Below are positions 9,092 to 60,636 of a DNA stretch of 64,000 bases, one piece after another. Origin of the DNA: a virus; the IMG/VR virus record IMGVR_UViG_3300020048_000024, positions 32,001 to 96,000 of that record; one strand, given 5' to 3'. The notes under the pieces are model-generated. The model saw only the letters and a list, made by a program, of their open reading frames with translations. It was not told the origin of the DNA and made no database searches. Both the position numbers and the translations under genes were made by a program. Position 1 is the first letter of the stretch; each line of letters starts with the position of its first letter.

Positions 9092-12000
9092 ATGCCAAAT
9101 ATACCATTATCCGGATCAACCAGCACTACTTCTGGATCACAAACAAGTTCATTGAGTAGTACTCGTCAAAGCTCGCTATTTGGACTTCAAGACTGGACTC
9201 GCATATATCAAACCTATCGAGCATCAAACTTAACTAGCTACGATTATACTACTCTTCGTAAAAGTTTTATTGATTATCTTACTACATACTATCCTGAATC
9301 ATTCAATGACTATACAGAATCATCTGAATTCATAGCACTACTCGATGTTATAGCGTTTATGGGTCAGGGATTGGCGTTTCGTGATGATTTAAACGCTCGT
9401 GAAAATTTTATGGATACAGCAGAGCGTAGAGACTCTGTTATAAAACTTGCTAATCTAGTTTCTTATAATCCAAAGCGTAATATTGAAGCAAACGGAGTTG
9501 TAAAAGTATCTTCTATTAGTACTAGCGAAAGTATCTTTGACATCAACGGAGTTAGTCTAGGCAATAGTACTGTATTCTGGAATGACCCTGCTAATCCAAA
9601 TTGGCAACAACAATTTAACACAATATTAAACGCATCACTGGTGAACAGTCAAGTAATTGGCAGACCAGGAAATAGTCAAGACATTCTTGGCATTCAAAAC
9701 AGTGAGTATACGATTAACATTGTTCCTGGACAAAATCCAGTAATACCGTTCATTGCTCAAATTAACGGTGTTTTGACTAATTTTGAATTAGTAAGCGTTA
9801 CTAGTATCAATCAATCATATCTATATGAACTACCACCAGCACCAACTGGGCAGTTTAATATTATATATTCAAATGACGGACTAGGATATGGTAGTCCTAA
9901 CACAGGATTTCTTTTTTACTTTAAACAGGGGACTTTAAGAAATTTTAATTTTAATTTCCCAGAAAGAATTCAAAACAATGTACAAGACATAAACATTCAA
10001 GGTATTAATAATACTGATACTTGGCTATACTCAGTAAACAGTAACGGAGCATTACAAGAACTGTGGTCTCAAGTTGAGAATCTCTTTATCAGCAATGGAA
10101 ATTCACAGGGTAACAGCGCCACTCCTATCTTTGAAGTAGCTAGTAGAACAAATGATCAAGTTACTTATATATTTGGCGATGGAGTGTTTGGAGAAATACC
10201 AGTAGGAAACTATCTTGCTTATGTTAGAAGCAGTAATGGTCTATCATACAGCATTGATCCTAGCGAAATGACTGGAATTGCTGTATCACTTCCATACATT
10301 GGTAGATCAGGCAATACAGAGTCATTGACATTTACATTTGATTTACAATCAGTTAATAATACTGCTCAGAGTCGTCAGTCTATAGTTGATATTAAAGAAC
10401 GAGCACCTGCTAGATATTATACCCAAAATCGTATGGTCAACGGAGAAGATTATACAAATTTTCCATTCACACTGTACAATTCAATTGTTAAAAGTAGTGC
10501 AGTAAACAGAACTAGTATTGGTGTTAGTCGTGGACTAGACTTGTTAGATCCTACTGGAATCTACAGTAGTACAAACGTATTTGCCAATGATGGTGCACTA
10601 TACTTAGATCCATTGCCTACTATAGCTACATTCTCGTCACAGAACATTAATGCCGCTATTCAATTTATATCACTTAGCTTGCCTATAATATTAGGAACAA
10701 CGCCAGCGACTCAATACTATCAAAAATATTATCCAAGATATTCAGGCTATTATACAGGAGCCGCATCTACAGATCATCGAGTTTACTGGCAGCAAACCAC
10801 GTTAACAGGATCAACCGTCACTGGATATTTTTATATATTAACCGCTGGTAATGTAAAAACTCCTATTCCTTTAGGAGTATACAGTACTTACTCAATGAGA
10901 TATATTAGTCAGGGTGCTCAACTTAATTTTGTTGCTCCAGTTGGCTATTATTTTGATAGCAACGATAGATTACAGCCGGGAATTGCTAATCCATATGTTG
11001 GAGATCGATCTAACATATGGATTGGAGTTTCATTAGTAATTGGCGATGGATATAACTTTGGCAACGGTAATTTAGAAACTGGTCTTGGCCCAGTTACATT
11101 GAATTCCTATGTTCCAACCGGAGCATTTCTAGATATAAATCAATCTACTCCTGCTGCTATTATACCATCGTTCAGCAGTGTGCTTAGTTCGGTATTAGTA
11201 AACCAAATGTTAGACTTAATAAGTTTGAAGCAGAACTTTGCTCTTAAATTTGACAACAGTATATTAGTAACACTAGAACAGTGGTCTATATTAAGTACAA
11301 TTCCTACTAATCCAAGCCCAACTGATTTATTCATAACATTCGTTAGTAGCGCGATTGACAATAATTATATCGTGACAATTTCTAGCACTAAGTATAATTT
11401 TGCCTCAGTTGATCAAATACGTTTTATTTTTAATGGATCACAGAAAGTATATGACCCACAAAGCGGTCAAGTATTTTCTGATTTTATCAATATTTTTGCT
11501 ACTAATGCCAATTCTACAAACAGTGGAACACTAGGCTTTGATCGAGTACTAAACGTAACTGGACAACCAGTGTTAAGCGATGGACACATTGATGATTACG
11601 AAGTAATAGTTAGTAGTATTAATTTAACCAGCGGTTTTACATATGATCCAGATTTTTTTACTGAAATAGTAGGAACAAGTACAGATGCGTATGTATTTCT
11701 TCAAGTATACTATGATATAAATAATTTGTATCGTACTCAAGTATTGCCGGTTGGATACATAATTTACACGTACTCTACACAAAATCAAGTACTAAATGTA
11801 ATATATGATTATCCTACTGGAACAGTATTCTACTGTAAATCTGGAACAACATCTAGCAGCGACCCTGTATTCTTTCAAAGTTCTCTTGTAGTAGGAACTA
11901 ATCCTCCTGTAATTATACTAAACGATGTTACTTCTGAGTATCTAGTTGCTACTGGCAGAGGTGGAATTAATTTTCAATACAGACATAATAGCAATAATAC

Positions 12001-12586
12001 AACCAGAGTAGATCCAAGTACTACTAATATCATTGATCTATACTTGGTAACTCAAAGCTATTATACTCAGTATCAAAATTGGATTCAAGATACAACCGGA
12101 ACGGTATTATACCCTTCTCAGCCAACTATCAATGAACTACAACAAGCGTATGGGGATTTAGATAGTTATAAAATGATAAGTGATTCTGTAGTATTAAACA
12201 GTGTAACATTTATTCCATTATTTGGTACAAAATCTAGTACGGCACTACAGGGTACTATAAAAGTTATTGCCAATCCAGTGACCGTAGCTAGTAATAGTCA
12301 AATTGTAAGTTCAGTACTGAGCGCCATGAATACTTATTTCACTATTGGAAATTGGGACTTTGGAGATACGTTTTATATGAGTGAATTAACTGCTTATCTA
12401 CATCTTCAGTTACAAGGTCTAATAAGCTCAGTTGTATTGGTTTCTAATAATCCAAATCAAAGCTTTGGAGACTTGTACGAAATTAAATGTGCTCCTAATG
12501 AGATTTTTGTTAATGGAGCAACTGCTAATGATATCATTGTAATTTCGTCTCTTACTCCAGCCGCTTTACAGCGCGGAACGATTTAA
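9092..12586 (+). CDS. Baseplate wedge protein, T4 gp6-like
   Basis: DY..LRKS.IDYL..YYPESFNDY.ESSE...LLD.IA; ARENF.DTAERRDSV..LA....YNP; FGDG.FG.IP; TQNRMVNGEDY motifs. Confidence 0.85.
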   Translation: MPNIPLSGSTSTTSGSQTSSLSSTRQSSLFGLQDWTRIYQTYRASNLTSYDYTTLRKSFIDYLTTYYPESFNDYTESSEFIALLDVIAFMGQGLAFRDDLNARENFMDTAERRDSVIKLANLVSYNPKRNIEANGVVKVSSISTSESIFDINGVSLGNSTVFWNDPANPNWQQQFNTILNASLVNSQVIGRPGNSQDILGIQNSEYTINIVPGQNPVIPFIAQINGVLTNFELVSVTSINQSYLYELPPAPTGQFNIIYSNDGLGYGSPNTGFLFYFKQGTLRNFNFNFPERIQNNVQDINIQGINNTDTWLYSVNSNGALQELWSQVENLFISNGNSQGNSATPIFEVASRTNDQVTYIFGDGVFGEIPVGNYLAYVRSSNGLSYSIDPSEMTGIAVSLPYIGRSGNTESLTFTFDLQSVNNTAQSRQSIVDIKERAPARYYTQNRMVNGEDYTNFPFTLYNSIVKSSAVNRTSIGVSRGLDLLDPTGIYSSTNVFANDGALYLDPLPTIATFSSQNINAAIQFISLSLPIILGTTPATQYYQKYYPRYSGYYTGAASTDHRVYWQQTTLTGSTVTGYFYILTAGNVKTPIPLGVYSTYSMRYISQGAQLNFVAPVGYYFDSNDRLQPGIANPYVGDRSNIWIGVSLVIGDGYNFGNGNLETGLGPVTLNSYVPTGAFLDINQSTPAAIIPSFSSVLSSVLVNQMLDLISLKQNFALKFDNSILVTLEQWSILSTIPTNPSPTDLFITFVSSAIDNNYIVTISSTKYNFASVDQIRFIFNGSQKVYDPQSGQVFSDFINIFATNANSTNSGTLGFDRVLNVTGQPVLSDGHIDDYEVIVSSINLTSGFTYDPDFFTEIVGTSTDAYVFLQVYYDINNLYRTQVLPVGYIIYTYSTQNQVLNVIYDYPTGTVFYCKSGTTSSSDPVFFQSSLVVGTNPPVIILNDVTSEYLVATGRGGINFQYRHNSNNTTRVDPSTTNIIDLYLVTQSYYTQYQNWIQDTTGTVLYPSQPTINELQQAYGDLDSYKMISDSVVLNSVTFIPLFGTKSSTALQGTIKVIANPVTVASNSQIVSSVLSAMNTYFTIGNWDFGDTFYMSELTAYLHLQLQGLISSVVLVSNNPNQSFGDLYEIKCAPNEIFVNGATANDIIVISSLTPAALQRGTI

Positions 12587-41456: not shown

Positions 41457-42704
41457 TCATTGGTCTCTATAAGCCATATTACGTTTTTGTGCTTGAAGAA
41501 CTTCACTACATGGATTAATTTTAGCTTTTGCAAGCAAATCTAAAGTTAGTCGTTCATCTAAACTAAATGCTGCCAGCTGAACCGCAGGAGTGGGCCAGAT
41601 ATTAGCATCAATGATCCATTTTAGTGCATGAACATATTTTTTTACTGCTAGTACTTGAACGGCTTGACTGGGTTTACGAACAGTTTGAAGAACAGACCAT
41701 AGACCATGAATGGATCGATTAACTACCCATAGCTGTAATTCTTCGCTAGGATTTCTTATTCCAGCAATAGCATCGGGATCACGTTTGCAAACTTCTAATT
41801 GAAAATCTTCTGGGGGATTTGGCATGAATCGTATATCTGTTGGATTAGCTAACACCCACTTCTTCTGATTATTCACACTCATATTTCTAAAACGTTCATG
41901 CTTAGAGGTCATGTAATCTTTTGTATGTGTGCCCTGTTCTGTGCTTTTAGCAATTTTGTGTGGCAAGTAATTTGGTCGATTGTGTACTTGTTTTACCACA
42001 TCAATGGCATCTGTACTAAAGAAAACACCTTGATATGGTTCACTTGTATGAATTATACCAAAGCCGTTATCCACAATCCCATCTATTCCAATAGCACGAA
42101 AGAGTTTATTCCATGATACTTCACTAGGCGGAAATTGATTTAACCCTGTAGGGAATTTTTTTTGTGCTTTAACTTTACCTAGTAGTTTTGAAACTTTCAT
42201 GGTTACGTACCAAAATCGACCACCTGCCATATGGTTAATTCTAGCTTTATCCTCTGCACTATTAATTATATTTTCAACTTCATCAACTGATGTTTTCCAA
42301 TCTTTTCCTGATTGTTGACTCCAGTATTCTGCTATCTTTTTATAATAGCCATTTGCTTCTTGATTATCCATTAGATCAATATCAATAATATTACCCTTAC
42401 ATTTGAATATATTGGCATATTCACTTTCTCCGGCAAATGGTAATACTCCCATTGACAAACTATTTGCAACTTTATCAACAACATACGCGGCCGGATATGC
42501 ATATATGCCGATTGGAGTTTTATATTTGCTTCGTGGATTGATACCTAGTTTATCTATTTCAGTAAATGAAATGAATAGATTGGCCACATTCTCTGAATTT
42601 TTAGACACATCACTTACTGCCCTAATCAATTCAGTGTTAGCCGTAAGCTTGGGATTTCGTTCCGGGTTTTTACGTAGTTCTGTTAGAATTTCTGTGATTT
42701 TCAT
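41457..42704 (-). CDS. Hypothetical late protein: possible ADP-ribosyltransferase-like domain plus C-terminal helical repeats
   Basis: MKITEILTE leader; TPIGIYAYP...GIDGIVD...IHTSEPYQGVFF; C-terminal ~22-aa repeats I..I.NP.EE.QL..V. Confidence 0.4.
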   Translation of the reverse strand: MKITEILTELRKNPERNPKLTANTELIRAVSDVSKNSENVANLFISFTEIDKLGINPRSKYKTPIGIYAYPAAYVVDKVANSLSMGVLPFAGESEYANIFKCKGNIIDIDLMDNQEANGYYKKIAEYWSQQSGKDWKTSVDEVENIINSAEDKARINHMAGGRFWYVTMKVSKLLGKVKAQKKFPTGLNQFPPSEVSWNKLFRAIGIDGIVDNGFGIIHTSEPYQGVFFSTDAIDVVKQVHNRPNYLPHKIAKSTEQGTHTKDYMTSKHERFRNMSVNNQKKWVLANPTDIRFMPNPPEDFQLEVCKRDPDAIAGIRNPSEELQLWVVNRSIHGLWSVLQTVRKPSQAVQVLAVKKYVHALKWIIDANIWPTPAVQLAAFSLDERLTLDLLAKAKINPCSEVLQAQKRNMAYRDQ

Positions 42705-43390
42705 GCTGATTTCAAAAGTGCGGAATCTATAAAAACTGGATCAGTTATTACCAATGTACCATCTGATCTAGCCATAACGTTGGCATCGTGAAGATCGGGT
42801 TCAAAATTTCCAGATTTTATCAATGTTTTTGCTATGTCTAGGGCGTCGATCCATTGAGGATGAGTTGATCCCCAATTTATATAAAAGCTACTATCTTTAT
42901 ATTTTGGACTTTTAGTCATATCGCTTGGCATACCTGTATTTCTTAGTACGCTATTTGACCAATTAATTATTCTTATATCATCACTGTTAGTAATAGGAGT
43001 GAGTTTCTCCATTCTAATAGCTGATACTTCGGGAGTAACAGGAACTATTCGTTTACTAATAAATTTGGGCATGTGTGGATTGTCTGTGTGTTTACGAGCG
43101 GTTGATATCCAAGCAGTATAGGCAGTATCGGTTGAGATAAACACTTTAAGAACATAAGATAATTTTGGATGACTCCATACTGTCCCAAAACCGCCTGAGC
43201 CCAATGGGTGAAATCCATTCTTTAGTAATATATCATGCCATTCAACGCCCATAGGATAAGGACTATCACTATCTCTGATTCTGTTAGGAACAGGCAAATC
43301 TTTGATTTTATTTTTAATACCAACTAGTTCTGTCAATTTTTCTTCATCGATTGAGCTATTGGTTTCGGGCAAGAATTCATGTGATTTCAT
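42701..43390 (-). CDS. Ser/Thr protein-kinase-like protein
   Basis: LGSGGFGTVW Gly loop, VLKVF, MEKL hinge, DLHDANVM catalytic loop, ITDP; start reassigned to ATG 43390 (MKSHEFLPE) 5 nt from GATAAATA. Confidence 0.75.
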   Translation of the reverse strand: MKSHEFLPETNSSIDEEKLTELVGIKNKIKDLPVPNRIRDSDSPYPMGVEWHDILLKNGFHPLGSGGFGTVWSHPKLSYVLKVFISTDTAYTAWISTARKHTDNPHMPKFISKRIVPVTPEVSAIRMEKLTPITNSDDIRIINWSNSVLRNTGMPSDMTKSPKYKDSSFYINWGSTHPQWIDALDIAKTLIKSGNFEPDLHDANVMARSDGTLVITDPVFIDSALLKSA

Positions 43391-43394
43391 ACTT

Positions 43395-43423
43395 GTATTT
43401 ATCCAAAGTAGTTGACATATGAT
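43395..43423. repeat. 29-bp direct repeat copy 1 (back-to-back late promoter / -35 box)
   Basis: GTATTTATCCAAAGTAGTTGACATATGAT identical at 43395 and 44207. Confidence 0.9.
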
Positions 43424-43543
43424 GATAAGTGGTGGTGATGAATACACAAGACCATCAAATGACTCACAAATTGAATCAATAATTGATAAAGCATTGAAAA
43501 ACTTCAATGATATCGGAGTAATTGAAGTGGCGATTAGTAGACT

Positions 43544-44200
43544 TTAAACTATCCAAGGGTCAATGATCACTGGAGTTCCGTCCGCTCGCGCCATGAAGTT
43601 ATACCCATGTAGGTCTAGTTCATATCCCATTTGATTTGCAATGTCATTAAGTCTGACAATGGTCTTGTAAAATACGTGAACTCCTCTAGGGCCCAGTATA
43701 TTCAAAAGTTTGTCCCATGAATTCTTATATCCCCACACTGGGTACGTTAAAGTTTGTGCCACATCCTCAAAGCTCTCGTTAGCCATTGCTCGATCTGCCA
43801 TTTCTTTGCATAGTTTGCCAATGGCACCAATACTATTCAGACGTTCTTGACGCATCTGTATATAAACATGCCCATTCCAATAGAAACTTTCAAAACCCGA
43901 AAACTTAGGTAGAAATGGATTACTCTTATGATTGTTGCAGTACTTGGCCCAACGAAAGAACATCATATGTTCCTTGGAGAATATAGGCTTAGTATTTTCA
44001 TCATTGGGTGCCAGTGATACATTGTTCTGTGTTCCAAATATCTTAAGTACCAATCCAGTTTCTGGTTCTAGAAATGCGGTTTGATCAACACCCTGACCAA
44101 TCTGCTTATAGCCCTTGTCTATAAGATGATCAACGATAGCTGGATCGGTATCGCTGTATTCGTCTAGTATGGATTCACGTAATATTTCAGATAATTTCAT
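43544..44200 (-). CDS. Ser/Thr protein-kinase-like protein (paralog)
   Basis: IGQGVDQTAF, VLKIF, QERL, DLHGYNFM, IIDPW; start reassigned to ATG 44200 (MKLSEILRE) 7 nt from GATAAATA. Confidence 0.75.
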   Translation of the reverse strand: MKLSEILRESILDEYSDTDPAIVDHLIDKGYKQIGQGVDQTAFLEPETGLVLKIFGTQNNVSLAPNDENTKPIFSKEHMMFFRWAKYCNNHKSNPFLPKFSGFESFYWNGHVYIQMRQERLNSIGAIGKLCKEMADRAMANESFEDVAQTLTYPVWGYKNSWDKLLNILGPRGVHVFYKTIVRLNDIANQMGYELDLHGYNFMARADGTPVIIDPWIV

Positions 44201-44206
44201 TATGTA

Positions 44207-44252
44207 GTATTTATCCAAAGTAGTTGACATATGATATTCATTACAGTATACT
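44207..44252. promoter_or_regulatory. 29-bp direct repeat copy 2: leftward late promoter (GATAAATA) and rightward sigma70 promoter
   Basis: TATTTATC 44208-44215; TTGACA 44224-44229, 17 bp, TATACT 44247-44252. Confidence 0.8.
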
Positions 44253-45593: not shown

Positions 45594-45599
45594 ATGTTT

Positions 45600-45931
45600 T
45601 TAAAGAATTGTTGTAAACCCTGAGTAATCAGGACAGAAGTAAAGAGAAAAGTGTTCAAGACGAGGGTTCGATTCCCTCCTTCTCCACCAAAAGTATACTG
45701 GTTCTCATCCACGTCCAAGAGTATGAGATAATAGTTGTGACGTACTTCCAGTATATTTCTGATGGGGAAGACCAGGTTTCGATTGGGCAAAGAGTAACGG
45801 AATGGACAACTCGACACAGATAGTCGTAAAAAGTAAACAACCAATAAAAGCAAACGAAGATAGCTTTGTAGCAGAACGCTTAGCGGCGTGATCACTACCG
45901 AGGTAGGAAATACCTTGTAACCAAAATCACC
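45600..45931 (+). ncRNA. ssrA: Circularly permuted (two-piece) tmRNA, tag ANEDSFVAERLAA*
   Basis: T-arm GAGGG-TTCGATT-CCCTC 45662-78 and CTTCTCC-ACCA 45679-89 precede the 5' strand GGGGAAG 45764-70 (7-bp acceptor stem with G3.U70); tag reading frame 45850-45891; ends approximate. Confidence 0.9.
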
Positions 45932-45957
45932 AAATAGGAACTTCGGTTCCTATTTTT
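45932..45957. terminator. Intrinsic terminator, probably bidirectional
   Basis: AAATAGGAAC-TTCG-GTTCCTATTT followed by T-run; between convergent tmRNA and 45956..46504. Confidence 0.85.
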
Positions 45958-46504
45958 ATTTACGACGCGGTGGTGGCGGAGCAGATGGTCTTTGTACGTG
46001 AACCGGTCTTTGTGGAGGCGGAGCAGATGGTCTTTGTACGTGAATTGGTCTTTGTGGCGGCGGAGCAGATGGTCTTTGAGTGTGACGAACAGGTTCATTA
46101 TAACGCTGAACAGCTCCACGATAATTACCTTGACCGTAGCCGCCGCTAAACTGAGGATTTCCCACCCAGTAGTACGGAGTCCATTGTAAGAATTGTTGAC
46201 GAAGTGGAGGATACCACCAGCGATTGATCCACCAAAATGGAGCTGGCCATCCAACAATAATTGGAGGCATATATTGAATTGCTTCTTCTGGCGGAATGGA
46301 TCTAGGATCATCACCGGGAACAAAATTTTGTGGAATATCATTAACAATCATATTTTCTGGAGGAGAATCTGCCGACTGTGCTTTTGAATCATTAGTGGCA
46401 CCGAGACCAAGTCCAGTAGCAGCCGCTCCGACTGCTCCTTTTAGAAACCCACGACGACTAATTTCGTCTAGTTCTTGTTCTACTAATATTTCGCTTATTT
46501 TCAT
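45956..46504 (-). CDS. Late protein with MKISE leader, twin-arginine (Tat) signal and Pro-rich tail
   Basis: MKISEILVEQELDE-ISRRGFLKGAVGAAATGLGLGATNDSKA/Q; 3x QRPSAPPP repeats; CTAAATA box and AAGGA SD upstream. Confidence 0.75.
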   Translation of the reverse strand: MKISEILVEQELDEISRRGFLKGAVGAAATGLGLGATNDSKAQSADSPPENMIVNDIPQNFVPGDDPRSIPPEEAIQYMPPIIVGWPAPFWWINRWWYPPLRQQFLQWTPYYWVGNPQFSGGYGQGNYRGAVQRYNEPVRHTQRPSAPPPQRPIHVQRPSAPPPQRPVHVQRPSAPPPPRRK

Positions 46505-46567
46505 TTTATTCCTTCTATACTATATTTAGTCATTGACAATAAATATAGTATATGTTAGAGTATCATT

Positions 46568-57888: not shown

Positions 57889-60636
57889 ATGTCAGACATT
57901 AAAAAATTCATGGATATAGTAACTGAAACGTCGGCTGGTGCAACTTCCAGTGGTTCAGTAGCTACCGTATCTCAGCCTATGATGGCTACAGAACGTAGAG
58001 TAAATCCTAGTATCTATGCTAATCAAGATTCAAAGCCAACAAAAATGGATGATCATTGCCCAGAGTGCAAATGTAATCCATGTGAATGTCACGAAGAAAG
58101 TAGAAAAGCGCCAACAGCACCAAAAGCAAAAGAATTTGGTTTATGGCAAAATAGTGTATTAGCTGGAAAAGCACAAAAAGATAAAAAAAAATCTAAAGCA
58201 ACTAATGAATCAGTTAAAATTTTAAAAACTACTAAAACTCCTACCGGTAAGCAAGTACAAGGAAATTACGGTCTAGATTATCAACCAGAAGAAAAACTAG
58301 ATATGTACGGGCACTCAATGAGAGGAAGTCCAAAGTTACATTCTCTCAGAATCCCTGACAATAAATATCCCGGACAAGGACCTGGACGTCCTGAAAATAT
58401 TAGCTCAACTGATGCATTTGACGTTTTAAAAAGAGATCCATTTGGTCGTGACAGCAATATGACAGAAGATGATCTAGAAGAAGATTGGGAAGGCATTAAG
58501 AATGCTGGTAAAAAAGCAATCGGGGCTGGAGCAATAGGATTAGCAGCATTGGGTGGAGGAGCTCAAGCACAGACCGCGCCAGCTAATACAGGCACTAATG
58601 CTACTATAGTAAAAAGTTTAGTAAATCCAGTGGCGCAACAAAGATTTGCAAAATTACACTCAGATACTACGGCTCAATTGAAAGATCCAAAATATACTCA
58701 CAATCCAGATGCATTAGCACAACATGAGAATTATCCTAAAGAACGACATAGTCAATATATACAAAATGTTAAAAACATAGAGCAGTGGCAAAACCCCTAT
58801 CAAATTATTAGTATTGCTCTGAACAAAGCAGGATTGACTCCGCAGGAAGTTTTACAAAATTTACCTAAAGGATACAAACTCCCATCAACAGAACCTAAAT
58901 CTGAGCCAGTGAGAATTCCGGGTGATCCAGGATACAAAGCACCTGTAAACGAATTTAAAAAACCTTCAAAAAAAATTAATGAGCGTGATTTTGGTCATGG
59001 ACAACGTAAATTAAAATTAGCAGAAGTAGATAAAGACAATAAGAAAAGCATAGGCCCAGATAAGAATGATCCTTTCGAGAAAGGTTGGCGTGCTAGATAC
59101 AATGATGATAATCCATACACTAAAGGTACTAAAGAATACAAAGAGTGGCAACACGGTAAAGATGAGCGTGAAGCACAGCCTAATCACTATGACGAAAGCA
59201 TAAATGAAGCAACAGGCGATGAAAAATTTGATAATATGATGGGTGGAATAGTACAGGGAGTTAAAAAACCTAGTATTGGCTCACGCTTAATGGCTCCATT
59301 TAAAAGAATGAAAGATCGTGGACAAGTTGCTGCTCAGTCGAGATTTTATAAGCAAATGATTGACAAGTATCATAATTTGGCTAGTGATTCAATGAATTCA
59401 ACAACTGATTATGAGTTCGATGATGAGCGTAGATTCCCTCATGAAGACCAGTTTTCAAAGTATATGTCAATAGCTCGATACTTTGAAATGTTACGTGGAG
59501 ATATGAAATTACACGCTCCATTTATACAGAATATAAGAAAAAATAATCCAGAACTAGCTAAGTATCAACCTTTAAATGCAGGTAAGAATTCAGACTTATA
59601 TGCAGAACCTGCATTGCCTAAATGGGTGCCGGCACATAATTCAATTATAGATATTGAACATCGTCCAGTGAAAATTACTCATACCGGTAAATATGAACGT
59701 CATCTTGGAGTTGAATGGATTAGTGCATACGGACAAAAACACTACGAAGAATTTTTAATTGAAGACCTCGAAAATCTACAAGACTTTTTGATTCAAGTTG
59801 AAGATGAAATTAATTTCAATGATGAACGAGAAGGAAGAGAAGGTTATGGTAGAGACTTAGATGAAGCCGCTAACTCTGCCCAACAAGCTGCTATTGCTAT
59901 TGCTAAAAAAAAGAAAGGTGTAACTAAGCAAGTAGATGAAATAGATATGAGTATCGTTGGTGACGCACTTGCTGGTGCTTCCTTAGGACTTGGTGCTGTT
60001 GGTGTAGGTAGTTACATTGGTCACAAAATTGGAAATAAAATTGGACAAAAATTTGTAGATCGTGCTAACAGAAAAGAAGCTGAACGTCAAGCAAAATATG
60101 ATAAAGAACAATTTGGCGGACCTCGTGACATTGATATGGATGATTGGGATGATGACGAAGACATTGAAGAAGGTAAAACTGGTCCTGGATTATGGACAAA
60201 TATACATAAAAAACAAAATCGCATAAAGAATGGTAGCGGTGAACATATGCGTAAACCAGGAAGCAAGGGTGCTCCTACTTCGGCTAACTTTAAAGCAGCG
60301 TCCAATACTGAAAGCGTGGCGGAAGCAGTAGAAGATCATACTAAAATCAAAGTTTCTAAAATATCATCTAAATATCCAGGAACAAATATCTTAACTGGGA
60401 GTAGTACAGTTCGTGTTGGAAGAAAGGGAAAAACTCCAATTGGAACATTTCCAACTTTTGAAATAGATGGACACAGATATATAACTCTTGCTGACGCAAA
60501 TAAAATAGAAAGAGCGTTGAAACAAGATGTGGCAGAAGACTCAAATACAAAAGTTACAAAAACGCCTAACGATATTCGTGCAATAAATAAAGCTTTCGTA
60601 AAACAAATTTCAGCACAGAAAAAGAGTAAAAGATAA
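57889..60636 (+). CDS. Large low-complexity late protein, putative internal-head polyprotein
   Basis: AGGA SD then ATG 57889 (MSDIKKFMDIVTE); many [LIVM]-x-E motifs separating unrelated short modules. Confidence 0.6.
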   Translation: MSDIKKFMDIVTETSAGATSSGSVATVSQPMMATERRVNPSIYANQDSKPTKMDDHCPECKCNPCECHEESRKAPTAPKAKEFGLWQNSVLAGKAQKDKKKSKATNESVKILKTTKTPTGKQVQGNYGLDYQPEEKLDMYGHSMRGSPKLHSLRIPDNKYPGQGPGRPENISSTDAFDVLKRDPFGRDSNMTEDDLEEDWEGIKNAGKKAIGAGAIGLAALGGGAQAQTAPANTGTNATIVKSLVNPVAQQRFAKLHSDTTAQLKDPKYTHNPDALAQHENYPKERHSQYIQNVKNIEQWQNPYQIISIALNKAGLTPQEVLQNLPKGYKLPSTEPKSEPVRIPGDPGYKAPVNEFKKPSKKINERDFGHGQRKLKLAEVDKDNKKSIGPDKNDPFEKGWRARYNDDNPYTKGTKEYKEWQHGKDEREAQPNHYDESINEATGDEKFDNMMGGIVQGVKKPSIGSRLMAPFKRMKDRGQVAAQSRFYKQMIDKYHNLASDSMNSTTDYEFDDERRFPHEDQFSKYMSIARYFEMLRGDMKLHAPFIQNIRKNNPELAKYQPLNAGKNSDLYAEPALPKWVPAHNSIIDIEHRPVKITHTGKYERHLGVEWISAYGQKHYEEFLIEDLENLQDFLIQVEDEINFNDEREGREGYGRDLDEAANSAQQAAIAIAKKKKGVTKQVDEIDMSIVGDALAGASLGLGAVGVGSYIGHKIGNKIGQKFVDRANRKEAERQAKYDKEQFGGPRDIDMDDWDDDEDIEEGKTGPGLWTNIHKKQNRIKNGSGEHMRKPGSKGAPTSANFKAASNTESVAEAVEDHTKIKVSKISSKYPGTNILTGSSTVRVGRKGKTPIGTFPTFEIDGHRYITLADANKIERALKQDVAEDSNTKVTKTPNDIRAINKAFVKQISAQKKSKR

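What the first reader, a model, noticed from the sequence alone, without database searches (positions are those of the whole stretch)
46382..46504. Twin-arginine signal peptide hidden behind a putative prohead-protease-cleaved leader
Seen: MKISEILVEQELDE is followed immediately by ISRRGFLKGAVGAAATGLGLGATNDSKA/QS, a textbook Tat motif (S-R-R-x-F-L-K), hydrophobic h-region and S-K-A peptidase site. Inference: cleavage at L-D-E in the capsid would expose a normal N-terminal Tat signal, so the protein could be packaged, injected into the next host and then exported by host Tat to the periplasm/envelope without new gene expression (e.g. superinfection exclusion, or Tat jamming). The mature part is a Trp/Tyr/Pro-rich, probably disordered peptide. 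I do not know of a described system with this two-step address.
Basis: partly seen in the sequence, partly recalled or inferred. Interest (0 to 1): 0.85.

Follow-up and report, generated by a model that had tools for sequence, protein, structure and literature searches.

The report
Export signal behind phage head-loading tag
An uncultured giant T4-like phage puts a bacterial export signal directly behind a "pack me into the head" tag, and relatives swap the Tat signal for a Sec signal, so this protein is probably injected with the DNA and then sent to the new host's cell envelope, though no experiment shows this yet.

Summary
Observation confirmed. The 182-aa late gene (46504..45956, minus strand) of a T4-like jumbo phage has a 14-residue leader ending in L-D-E, then a real Tat signal (TIGR01409 and PF10518 at or above cut-off). 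About 20 unrelated genes of this phage share the leader. The junction is not chance. In a search on the Tat motif alone, [LIVMF]-x-E lay 2-4 residues before RR in 45 of 53 viral hits. Only 9 of 109 cellular hits had such a site within 6 residues. Identifiable cargoes behind the cassette act in the envelope (LysM+SLT, TonB-C). Key correction: positional orthologues keep leader, L-D-E and cargo but carry a Sec-type signal without RR. A second cargo family shows the same swap. So export is conserved and Tat is not, which argues against Tat jamming. "Hidden" is unproven, because RR at residue 17 lies within the normal Tat n-region range. Best reading (about 0.5): packaged, cut by the gp21-type protease, ejected, then exported to the periplasm. 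Packaging, cleavage and export are all inferred. I found no paper on this. The scan noted the layout before in other genomes (e1-5320589, e1-5367516, e1-5401405, e1-5339030).

The parts
45956..46504 (-). Whole gene, 182 aa: leader + export signal + Trp/Pro-rich core + Pro/Arg-rich tail
   Evidence: orthologues P0001-P0007 are syntenic, divergent from the same 84/85-aa gene
46523..46529 (-). Late-promoter-like box CTAAATA; orthologues have CTAAATA or GATAAAT(A)
   Evidence: box upstream of 10 of 20 leader genes vs 26 of 182 other genes, p=0.0005
46510..46513 (-). Shine-Dalgarno AGGA before the ATG
46463..46504 (-). Residues 1-14: capsid-targeting-like leader with I/L-x-E sites, ending in L-D-E (inferred gp21-type cut site)
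   Evidence: 71-100% identical in all orthologues; shared by about 20 unrelated ORFs of the genome; T4 gp21 motif L/I-X-E (PMC9026906)
46439..46462 (-). Residues 15-22: Tat n-region with the S-R-R-x-F-L-K motif
   Evidence: no ATG/GTG/TTG between leader and RR (for the codons; for 45 cassettes)
46394..46438 (-). Residues 23-37: Gly/Ala-rich h-region of low hydrophobicity, typical of Tat
   Evidence: best 12-residue Kyte-Doolittle mean 1.39; cellular Tat 10th-90th percentile 1.13-1.96
46379..46393 (-). Residues 38-42: polar c-region with a Lys and an S-K-A signal peptidase I site (inferred cut before Gln43)
   Evidence: sequence; A-x-A c-region enriched in 31 of 45 viral cassettes vs 16.8 in shuffles; c-region basic residue as Sec-avoidance motif per PMC7317946
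46142..46378 (-). Residues 43-121: conserved Trp/Tyr/Pro-rich core, the inferred periplasmic cargo; no known family; no L/I/V-x-E site
45959..46141 (-). Residues 122-182: basic (+10), Pro-rich, probably disordered tail with three 14-residue-spaced repeats; variable between orthologues
45932..45955 (.). Bidirectional terminator hairpin shared with the convergent permuted tmRNA gene
58474..58569 (+). Parallel case in the same genome: Sec-type signal with an A-Q-A site directly after L-E-E inside a polyprotein

Best explanation
A two-address virion cargo protein. (1) It is made late and drawn into the prohead core by its N-terminal leader, as T4 internal proteins are by their capsid-targeting sequence (inferred by analogy; indirect support from PA5oct virion proteomics). 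(2) The phage's gp21-type protease cuts after L-D-E, removing an acidic leader and leaving a positively charged, conventional signal peptide at the N-terminus (protease gene shown; cut inferred). (3) The protein is ejected with the DNA into the next host's cytoplasm (inferred). (4) Host Tat exports it, or host Sec in the orthologues, and signal peptidase I releases the roughly 140-residue cargo into the periplasm (signal anatomy shown; export inferred). The address is a portable cassette, leader or linker + L-x-E + export signal, placed before at least 26 unrelated cargoes in this phage group, and the Tat and Sec versions are interchangeable. The cargo most likely acts on the envelope right after entry, for example excluding secondary infection or protecting the puncture site. 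This last step is the weakest (about 0.25).
For: Non-circular junction test: a pattern holding only RRxFLKGxGAA found [LIVMF]xE 2-4 residues before RR in 45/53 viral hits; only 9/109 cellular hits had such a site within 0-6 residues. The c-region, also outside the pattern, keeps A-x-A in 31/45 vs 16.8 shuffled, p=0.0005. RR positions run from 8 to 989 among complete proteins, and internal copies follow L-x-E linkers; internal signals make most sense if a cut frees them. No drift toward internal start codons: the -2 residue is mostly Ile, and Val there is never GTG (0/8). Orthologues keep leader, L-D-E and core but swap Tat for Sec-type signals. A second cargo family shows the same swap, L011 Sec vs L004/L006/L028/L059 Tat, 33-50% identical. 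Cargo domains: LysM+SLT, TonB-C/TolA-C twice, M48 peptidase, and GH19 behind a Sec-like segment in this genome. Gp23, Gp20 and S77 protease are encoded here; three larger cassette genomes carry a 61-69% identical protease. In PA5oct, 4 of 6 strict-leader ORFs are among the 93 virion-MS proteins vs 85 of 440 others, p=0.016. T4 delivers CTS-tagged foreign proteins into the next host (PMC9026906).
Against: No virion, cleavage or export data exist for this phage group. None of the eight cultured relatives checked has the Tat cassette. The uncut precursor already passes Tat profiles and its RR position is normal, so it could be exported in the producing cell before packaging. The PA5oct test rests on six genes, and its MS list includes non-virion enzymes. 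The viral hits are related, so the p-values overstate independence. Most cargoes (about 45 of 52), this one included, have no known family. [quoted passage not shown]
Confidence: 0.5

Rival explanations
1. Ordinary late export in the producing cell. The leader does not block the signal, the protein goes to the periplasm during late infection (like T4 RI or T5 Llp, acting in lysis timing or exclusion), and the leader is a leftover of the gene family from which it arose.
For: RR at residue 17 is within the normal n-region range. The full-length protein passes TIGR01409. The gene has a late-promoter-like box. Exported late phage proteins are well known (T4 RI and T5 Llp appear).
Against: The leader is 71-100% conserved while the signal diverges to 21-35%, which a vestige would not do. 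The same junction occurs hundreds of residues inside polyproteins, with tandem Sec and Tat cassettes in one chain (L068). An acidic leader sits before Sec-type signals, which need a basic n-region (PMC7317946).
Confidence: 0.2
2. The signal-like segment works as a membrane-binding helix without any host translocase, for example docking cargo on membrane-assembled proheads or anchoring ejected proteins in the inner membrane at the entry site.
For: Some cassettes lack a clear A-x-A site, such as the second copy in this genome at G000 129143-129217 and L012/L050. T4 proheads assemble on the membrane (PMC9026906). RRxFLK segments also occur inside other viral proteins with no preceding L-x-E (L052, L060, L062).
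Against: The exact RRxFLK consensus and the A-x-A site are kept far above chance, which points to TatC and signal peptidase recognition. Cargoes such as LysM+SLT and TonB-C have periplasmic targets.
Confidence: 0.15
3. Tat jamming or TatC decoy: a Tat signal fused to a poorly folded, aromatic cargo clogs the host Tat translocase.
For: Tat precursors with exposed hydrophobic regions stall late in translocation (PMC13673990). The cargo is Trp/Tyr-rich and only partly ordered.
Against: Five of the eight orthologue clusters aligned have no twin arginine. The cargo core is conserved as a specific sequence. Other cargoes are folded envelope domains.
Confidence: 0.07
4. Internal translation start: the signal is translated from its own start codon, so no protease is needed.
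For: A Met lies two residues before RR in 5 of 45 cassettes, and just after L-D-E in several Sec-type orthologues.
Against: The target has ATT there. 28 of 45 cassettes have Ile, 8 have Val and none of those uses GTG, and Shine-Dalgarno motifs are nearly absent. The Met is replaced by Thr (ACG) in L210 and Leu (CTA) in L213.
Confidence: 0.05

Closest known systems
Phage T4 internal head proteins IPI, IPII, IPIII and Alt, with the capsid-targeting sequence removed by prohead protease gp21 (PMC9026906)
   Same: Short N-terminal tag ending in L/I-x-E on unrelated cargoes; late expression; same head module (Gp20, Gp23, S77 protease) in the genome.
   Different: The T4 proteins act in the cytoplasm after ejection and carry no export signal. 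Here a Tat or Sec signal follows the cut site, and the cassette also occurs inside polyproteins. The tag sequence differs, and nothing is shown experimentally.
Bacterial Tat substrates (TIGR01409, PF10518; PMC7317946)
   Same: S-R-R-x-F-L-K motif, low-hydrophobicity h-region, basic residue in the c-region, A-x-A-type peptidase site.
   Different: Phage-encoded; preceded by an acidic leader; the cargo is no known cofactor protein; orthologues use Sec-type signals.
Exported phage envelope proteins made de novo: T4 antiholin RI (cleavable signal peptide), T5 Llp, P22 SieA
   Same: Phage proteins sent to the host envelope through host export pathways, acting in exclusion or lysis control (titles and abstracts).
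   Different: Those are synthesised in the infected cell with a plain N-terminal signal. None is known to be head-packaged and protease-unmasked. No sequence similarity was found.
phiKZ and SPN3US ejection proteins matured by the prohead protease
   Same: Many head proteins cut after Glu and delivered into the host (PMC9026906; abstracts).
   Different: Different phage family and motif (S/A-x-E); no export signal revealed by the cut is described in the passages read.

Membership tests
Tat substrate | Twin-arginine consensus S/T-R-R-x-F-L-K | tested here: met
   residues 16-22; TIGR01409 22.8 vs cut-off 16.7; PF10518 22.7 at cut-off. Not met in orthologues P0003-P0007
Tat substrate | Moderately hydrophobic h-region of at least 12 residues | tested here: met
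   16 uncharged residues; hydropathy 1.39, within the cellular range 1.13-1.96
Tat substrate | Polar c-region with a signal peptidase I site | tested here: met
   S-K-A/Q here; A-x-A enriched across cassettes; SignalP and TatP were not available
Tat substrate | n-region with net positive charge | tested here: inconclusive
   Residues 1-16 net -4 uncut (2 of 106 cellular cases are as acidic); residues 15-22 net +3 after a cut at L-D-E
Tat substrate | Folded or Tat-compatible passenger | tested here: inconclusive
   Core pLDDT 61-78 over residues 51-100, tail low; no fold match
Tat substrate | TatC-dependent export in vivo | not testable with these tools
   needs a reporter assay
T4-type internal head protein (CTS + gp21) | Short N-terminal propeptide ending in L/I-x-E on unrelated cargoes | tested here: met
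   20 ORFs in G000; sites ending at residues 5, 9 and 14 of this protein
T4-type internal head protein (CTS + gp21) | gp21-type protease and T4-type head genes in the genome | tested here: met
   PF03420, PF07068, PF07230; scaffold-like gene rich in L/I/V-x-E (6.3 per 100 aa)
T4-type internal head protein (CTS + gp21) | Late expression | tested here: inconclusive
T4-type internal head protein (CTS + gp21) | Present in virions | not testable with these tools
   indirect only: leader proteins of PA5oct, 4 of 6 in virion MS
T4-type internal head protein (CTS + gp21) | Propeptide removed by the protease and mature protein ejected into the host | not testable with these tools
   no peptide-level data available
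T4-type internal head protein (CTS + gp21) | Sequence homology of the tag to the T4 IPIII CTS | not tested
   T4 sequences were not fetched; the likeness is one of layout and cut motif only

The most novel reading that the evidence does not exclude
A widespread group of uncultured jumbo T4-like phages uses a modular two-step address code. Capsid maturation unmasks interchangeable Tat or Sec signal peptides, at N-termini and inside polyproteins, so that virion-borne proteins are ejected into the cytoplasm and then exported by the host into its own periplasm before any phage gene is expressed. This would deliver a variable set of envelope effectors.
Probability: 0.45. Interest if true: 0.85.

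Novelty: new variant of a known kind. Interest (0 to 1): 0.62.

Why it matters
Injected phage proteins are known to act in the cytoplasm or in the ejection channel. A route from capsid to cytoplasm to periplasm through host Sec or Tat, switched on by head maturation, would give phages immediate, transcription-independent control of the envelope, with bearing on superinfection exclusion and envelope-level counter-defence. The Tat-to-Sec swaps make the idea easy to test in laboratory E. coli with reporter fusions and the purified protease. The cassette also marks dozens of unknown phage proteins as candidate periplasmic effectors.

Tried and rejected
Chance motif: rejected. Internal start codon: largely rejected. 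Cargo family assignment: Pfam, NCBIfam, Atlas, Foldseek and VIA gave nothing usable; the weak WXXGXW Atlas lead (0.77) is at chance level. The 3-sequence AlphaFold model was uninformative. No longer fused form of the cargo was found, which is weak evidence. A generic DNA pattern for the Sec-type cassette returned mostly noise (1 of 45); Sec cassettes were then found by scanning loci already fetched, which is a biased sample. The cassette was not found in eight cultured relatives or by tblastn in INPHARED. About 40 leader proteins in a 48-kb stretch of RsoM2USA show no signal peptide. The core tree cannot say whether Tat or Sec is ancestral. Nine literature searches and term searches in seven papers found no description of this layout; closed-access papers are not covered. 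A host search by tmRNA failed on tool input. Complex prediction was not used, as no specific partner was claimed.

Full report
CONTEXT. The window is bases 32001-96000 of one 159,889-bp viral contig, 36.6% GC, estimated 45% complete. It encodes a T4-type major capsid protein, portal and S77 prohead protease. Its closest cultured relatives by capsid and protease are Rak2-like and other jumbo myoviruses (Phosso, PA5oct, CBB) at 55-63% identity. A permuted tmRNA of betaproteobacterial type lies next to the gene. This hints at a betaproteobacterial, Gram-negative host; the host was not identified.

OBSERVATION. The motif is expected 0.0025 times by chance in this proteome, but occurs twice, both times just after L-D-E; the second copy is at residue 312 of a 678-aa modular protein. 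The gene has a TAAATA box and a Shine-Dalgarno sequence. The mature part has a conserved core (residues 43-121) with moderate model confidence, and a basic, Pro-rich, variable tail. It matches no family or fold.

THE LEADER. Twenty unrelated ORFs of the genome begin with M-[K/R]-x-x-[E/D]-[I/L/F] followed by an L/I/V/T/F-x-E site. They are enriched for the TAAATA box, 10/20 vs 26/182, p=0.0005. T4 gp21 cuts after L/I-X-E, and a 10-residue propeptide suffices to load proteins into the head and deliver them to the next host (PMC9026906). As an experimental anchor I checked PA5oct, whose CsCl-purified virions were analysed by MS (PMC7318152). After removing one false start, 4 of 6 ORFs with a strict leader are on the MS list vs 85 of 440 others, p=0.016. 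One of them is the small gene between portal and scaffold. The test is small and the list contains contaminants, so this is support, not proof.

THE JUNCTION IS A REUSED CASSETTE. I searched with a pattern encoding only RRxFLKGxGAA. In viral contigs 45 of 53 distinct hits had [LIVMF]-x-E ending 2-4 residues before RR; in cellular genomes 9 of 109 had such a site within 0-6 residues. The c-region was not in the pattern, yet A-x-A is kept in 31 of 45 vs 16.8 in shuffles. The cassette precedes 26 cargo clusters, at positions from 8 to 989, and 26 of 34 complete proteins begin with a leader. Cassette loci have 1.4 leader ORFs per 10 kb against 0.02 in cellular loci, and three large cassette genomes encode a protease 61-69% identical to this one. 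These phages are related, so the counts are not independent events. Identifiable cargoes are envelope-type: LysM+SLT, TonB-C/TolA-C twice, an M48 peptidase. Internal translation starts do not explain the layout.

EXPORT IS CONSERVED, TAT IS NOT. Profile searches with the core found seven other clusters. P0001 and P0002 keep the Tat motif. P0003, P0005, P0006 and P0007 keep leader, L-D-E and core, but have a Lys/His n-region, an Ala-rich h-region and an A-H-S, A-H-G or A-D-A site, with no RR. P0004 has a different Lys/Arg signal ending in A-S-A. They are positional orthologues where context could be read: divergent from the same 84/85-aa gene, and in L204 followed by the same permuted tmRNA. 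Identity to the target is 71% in the leader, 39-59% in the core and 21-35% in the signal. A recurrent Sec-type cassette follows the same linkers in five other loci. One of them (L011) carries a cargo 33-50% identical to Tat-linked cargoes in four loci, and L068 has Sec and Tat cassettes in tandem. This genome has two further Sec-like cases, one in the polyprotein at window 58474-58569 and one before a GH19 domain. Functional overlap of Sec and Tat signals is established (PMC7317946). The Sec assignments are by eye and by pattern; SignalP was not available.

IS THE SIGNAL HIDDEN? Not shown. Tat signals average 37 residues with the extra length in the n-region (PMC1182353). In my cellular set RR often lies beyond residue 15, and some n-regions are acidic. 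The leader is unusually acidic, and a cut would change the n-region from net -1 to +3, matching the textbook positive n-region (PMC13673990). Masking is therefore plausible, more so for the Sec forms and for internal copies, but it needs an assay.

MECHANISM AND VERDICT. Best reading (0.5): late synthesis, leader-directed loading, cut at L-D-E, ejection, host export, and release in the periplasm. Shown: the sequence anatomy, the protease gene, the non-random junction, the signal swaps and envelope-type cargoes elsewhere. Inferred: every physical step, and the cargo's role. Rivals: export in the producing cell (0.2), translocase-independent membrane helix (0.15), Tat jamming (0.07), internal start (0.05). 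It works like a T4 internal protein with a second address added; membership is supported by pattern only. I found no paper describing this, and no cultured phage checked carries the Tat cassette. The scan's earlier notes report the same layout in other genomes. Class: new variant of a known kind. Interest 0.62.

Noticed in passing
window 45597-45982 (+): Permuted two-piece tmRNA of betaproteobacterial type (Rfam RF04321 and RF01850 above cut-off), convergent with the target gene; the same arrangement is kept in L204 and L205.
   Followed up: partly
L200:2211-4244 (+), G000 128210-130246: 678-aa leader protein with a sigma70 region-4-like module and an internal L-D-E followed by a Tat motif without a clear peptidase site.
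   Followed up: partly
L200:7159-7899 (+), G000 133158-133901: Leader + Sec-like segment + GH19 domain; L027 appears by eye to carry a similar domain behind a Sec cassette.
   Followed up: partly
G000 133898-143445 (L200): Five tandem paralogues, each with a leader ending in x-x-E right before a conserved [V/I]AMNPTA start; suggests Ile/Val is tolerated after the cut.
   Followed up: no
window 41457-44230 (-): Three further leader-bearing late genes, two of them kinase-like by eye, with no Pfam match.
   Followed up: no
L051:2473-3006, L053:468-1001: Phage proteins with a Tat cassette followed by a TonB C-terminal domain and no membrane anchor: candidate soluble decoys for TonB-dependent receptors.
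   Followed up: no
L306 (Ralstonia phage RsoM2USA 168000-216000): About 40 ORFs of about 200 aa, all starting with an M-K-L-x-E-I type leader, in a cultured phage: a tractable model for testing the leader.
   Followed up: partly
L052, L060, L062: Internal RRxFLK segments in other viral proteins with no preceding L-x-E; possibly a second, protease-independent use of the motif.
   Followed up: no
L210:2017-2235 (-): Small lipoprotein-like gene (lipobox by eye) with Pro/Val/Tyr repeats near the orthologue.
   Followed up: no
G000 11061-12137 (L198): The major capsid gene holds a run of N and is shorter than in relatives, which points to an assembly gap or masked stretch.
   Followed up: no
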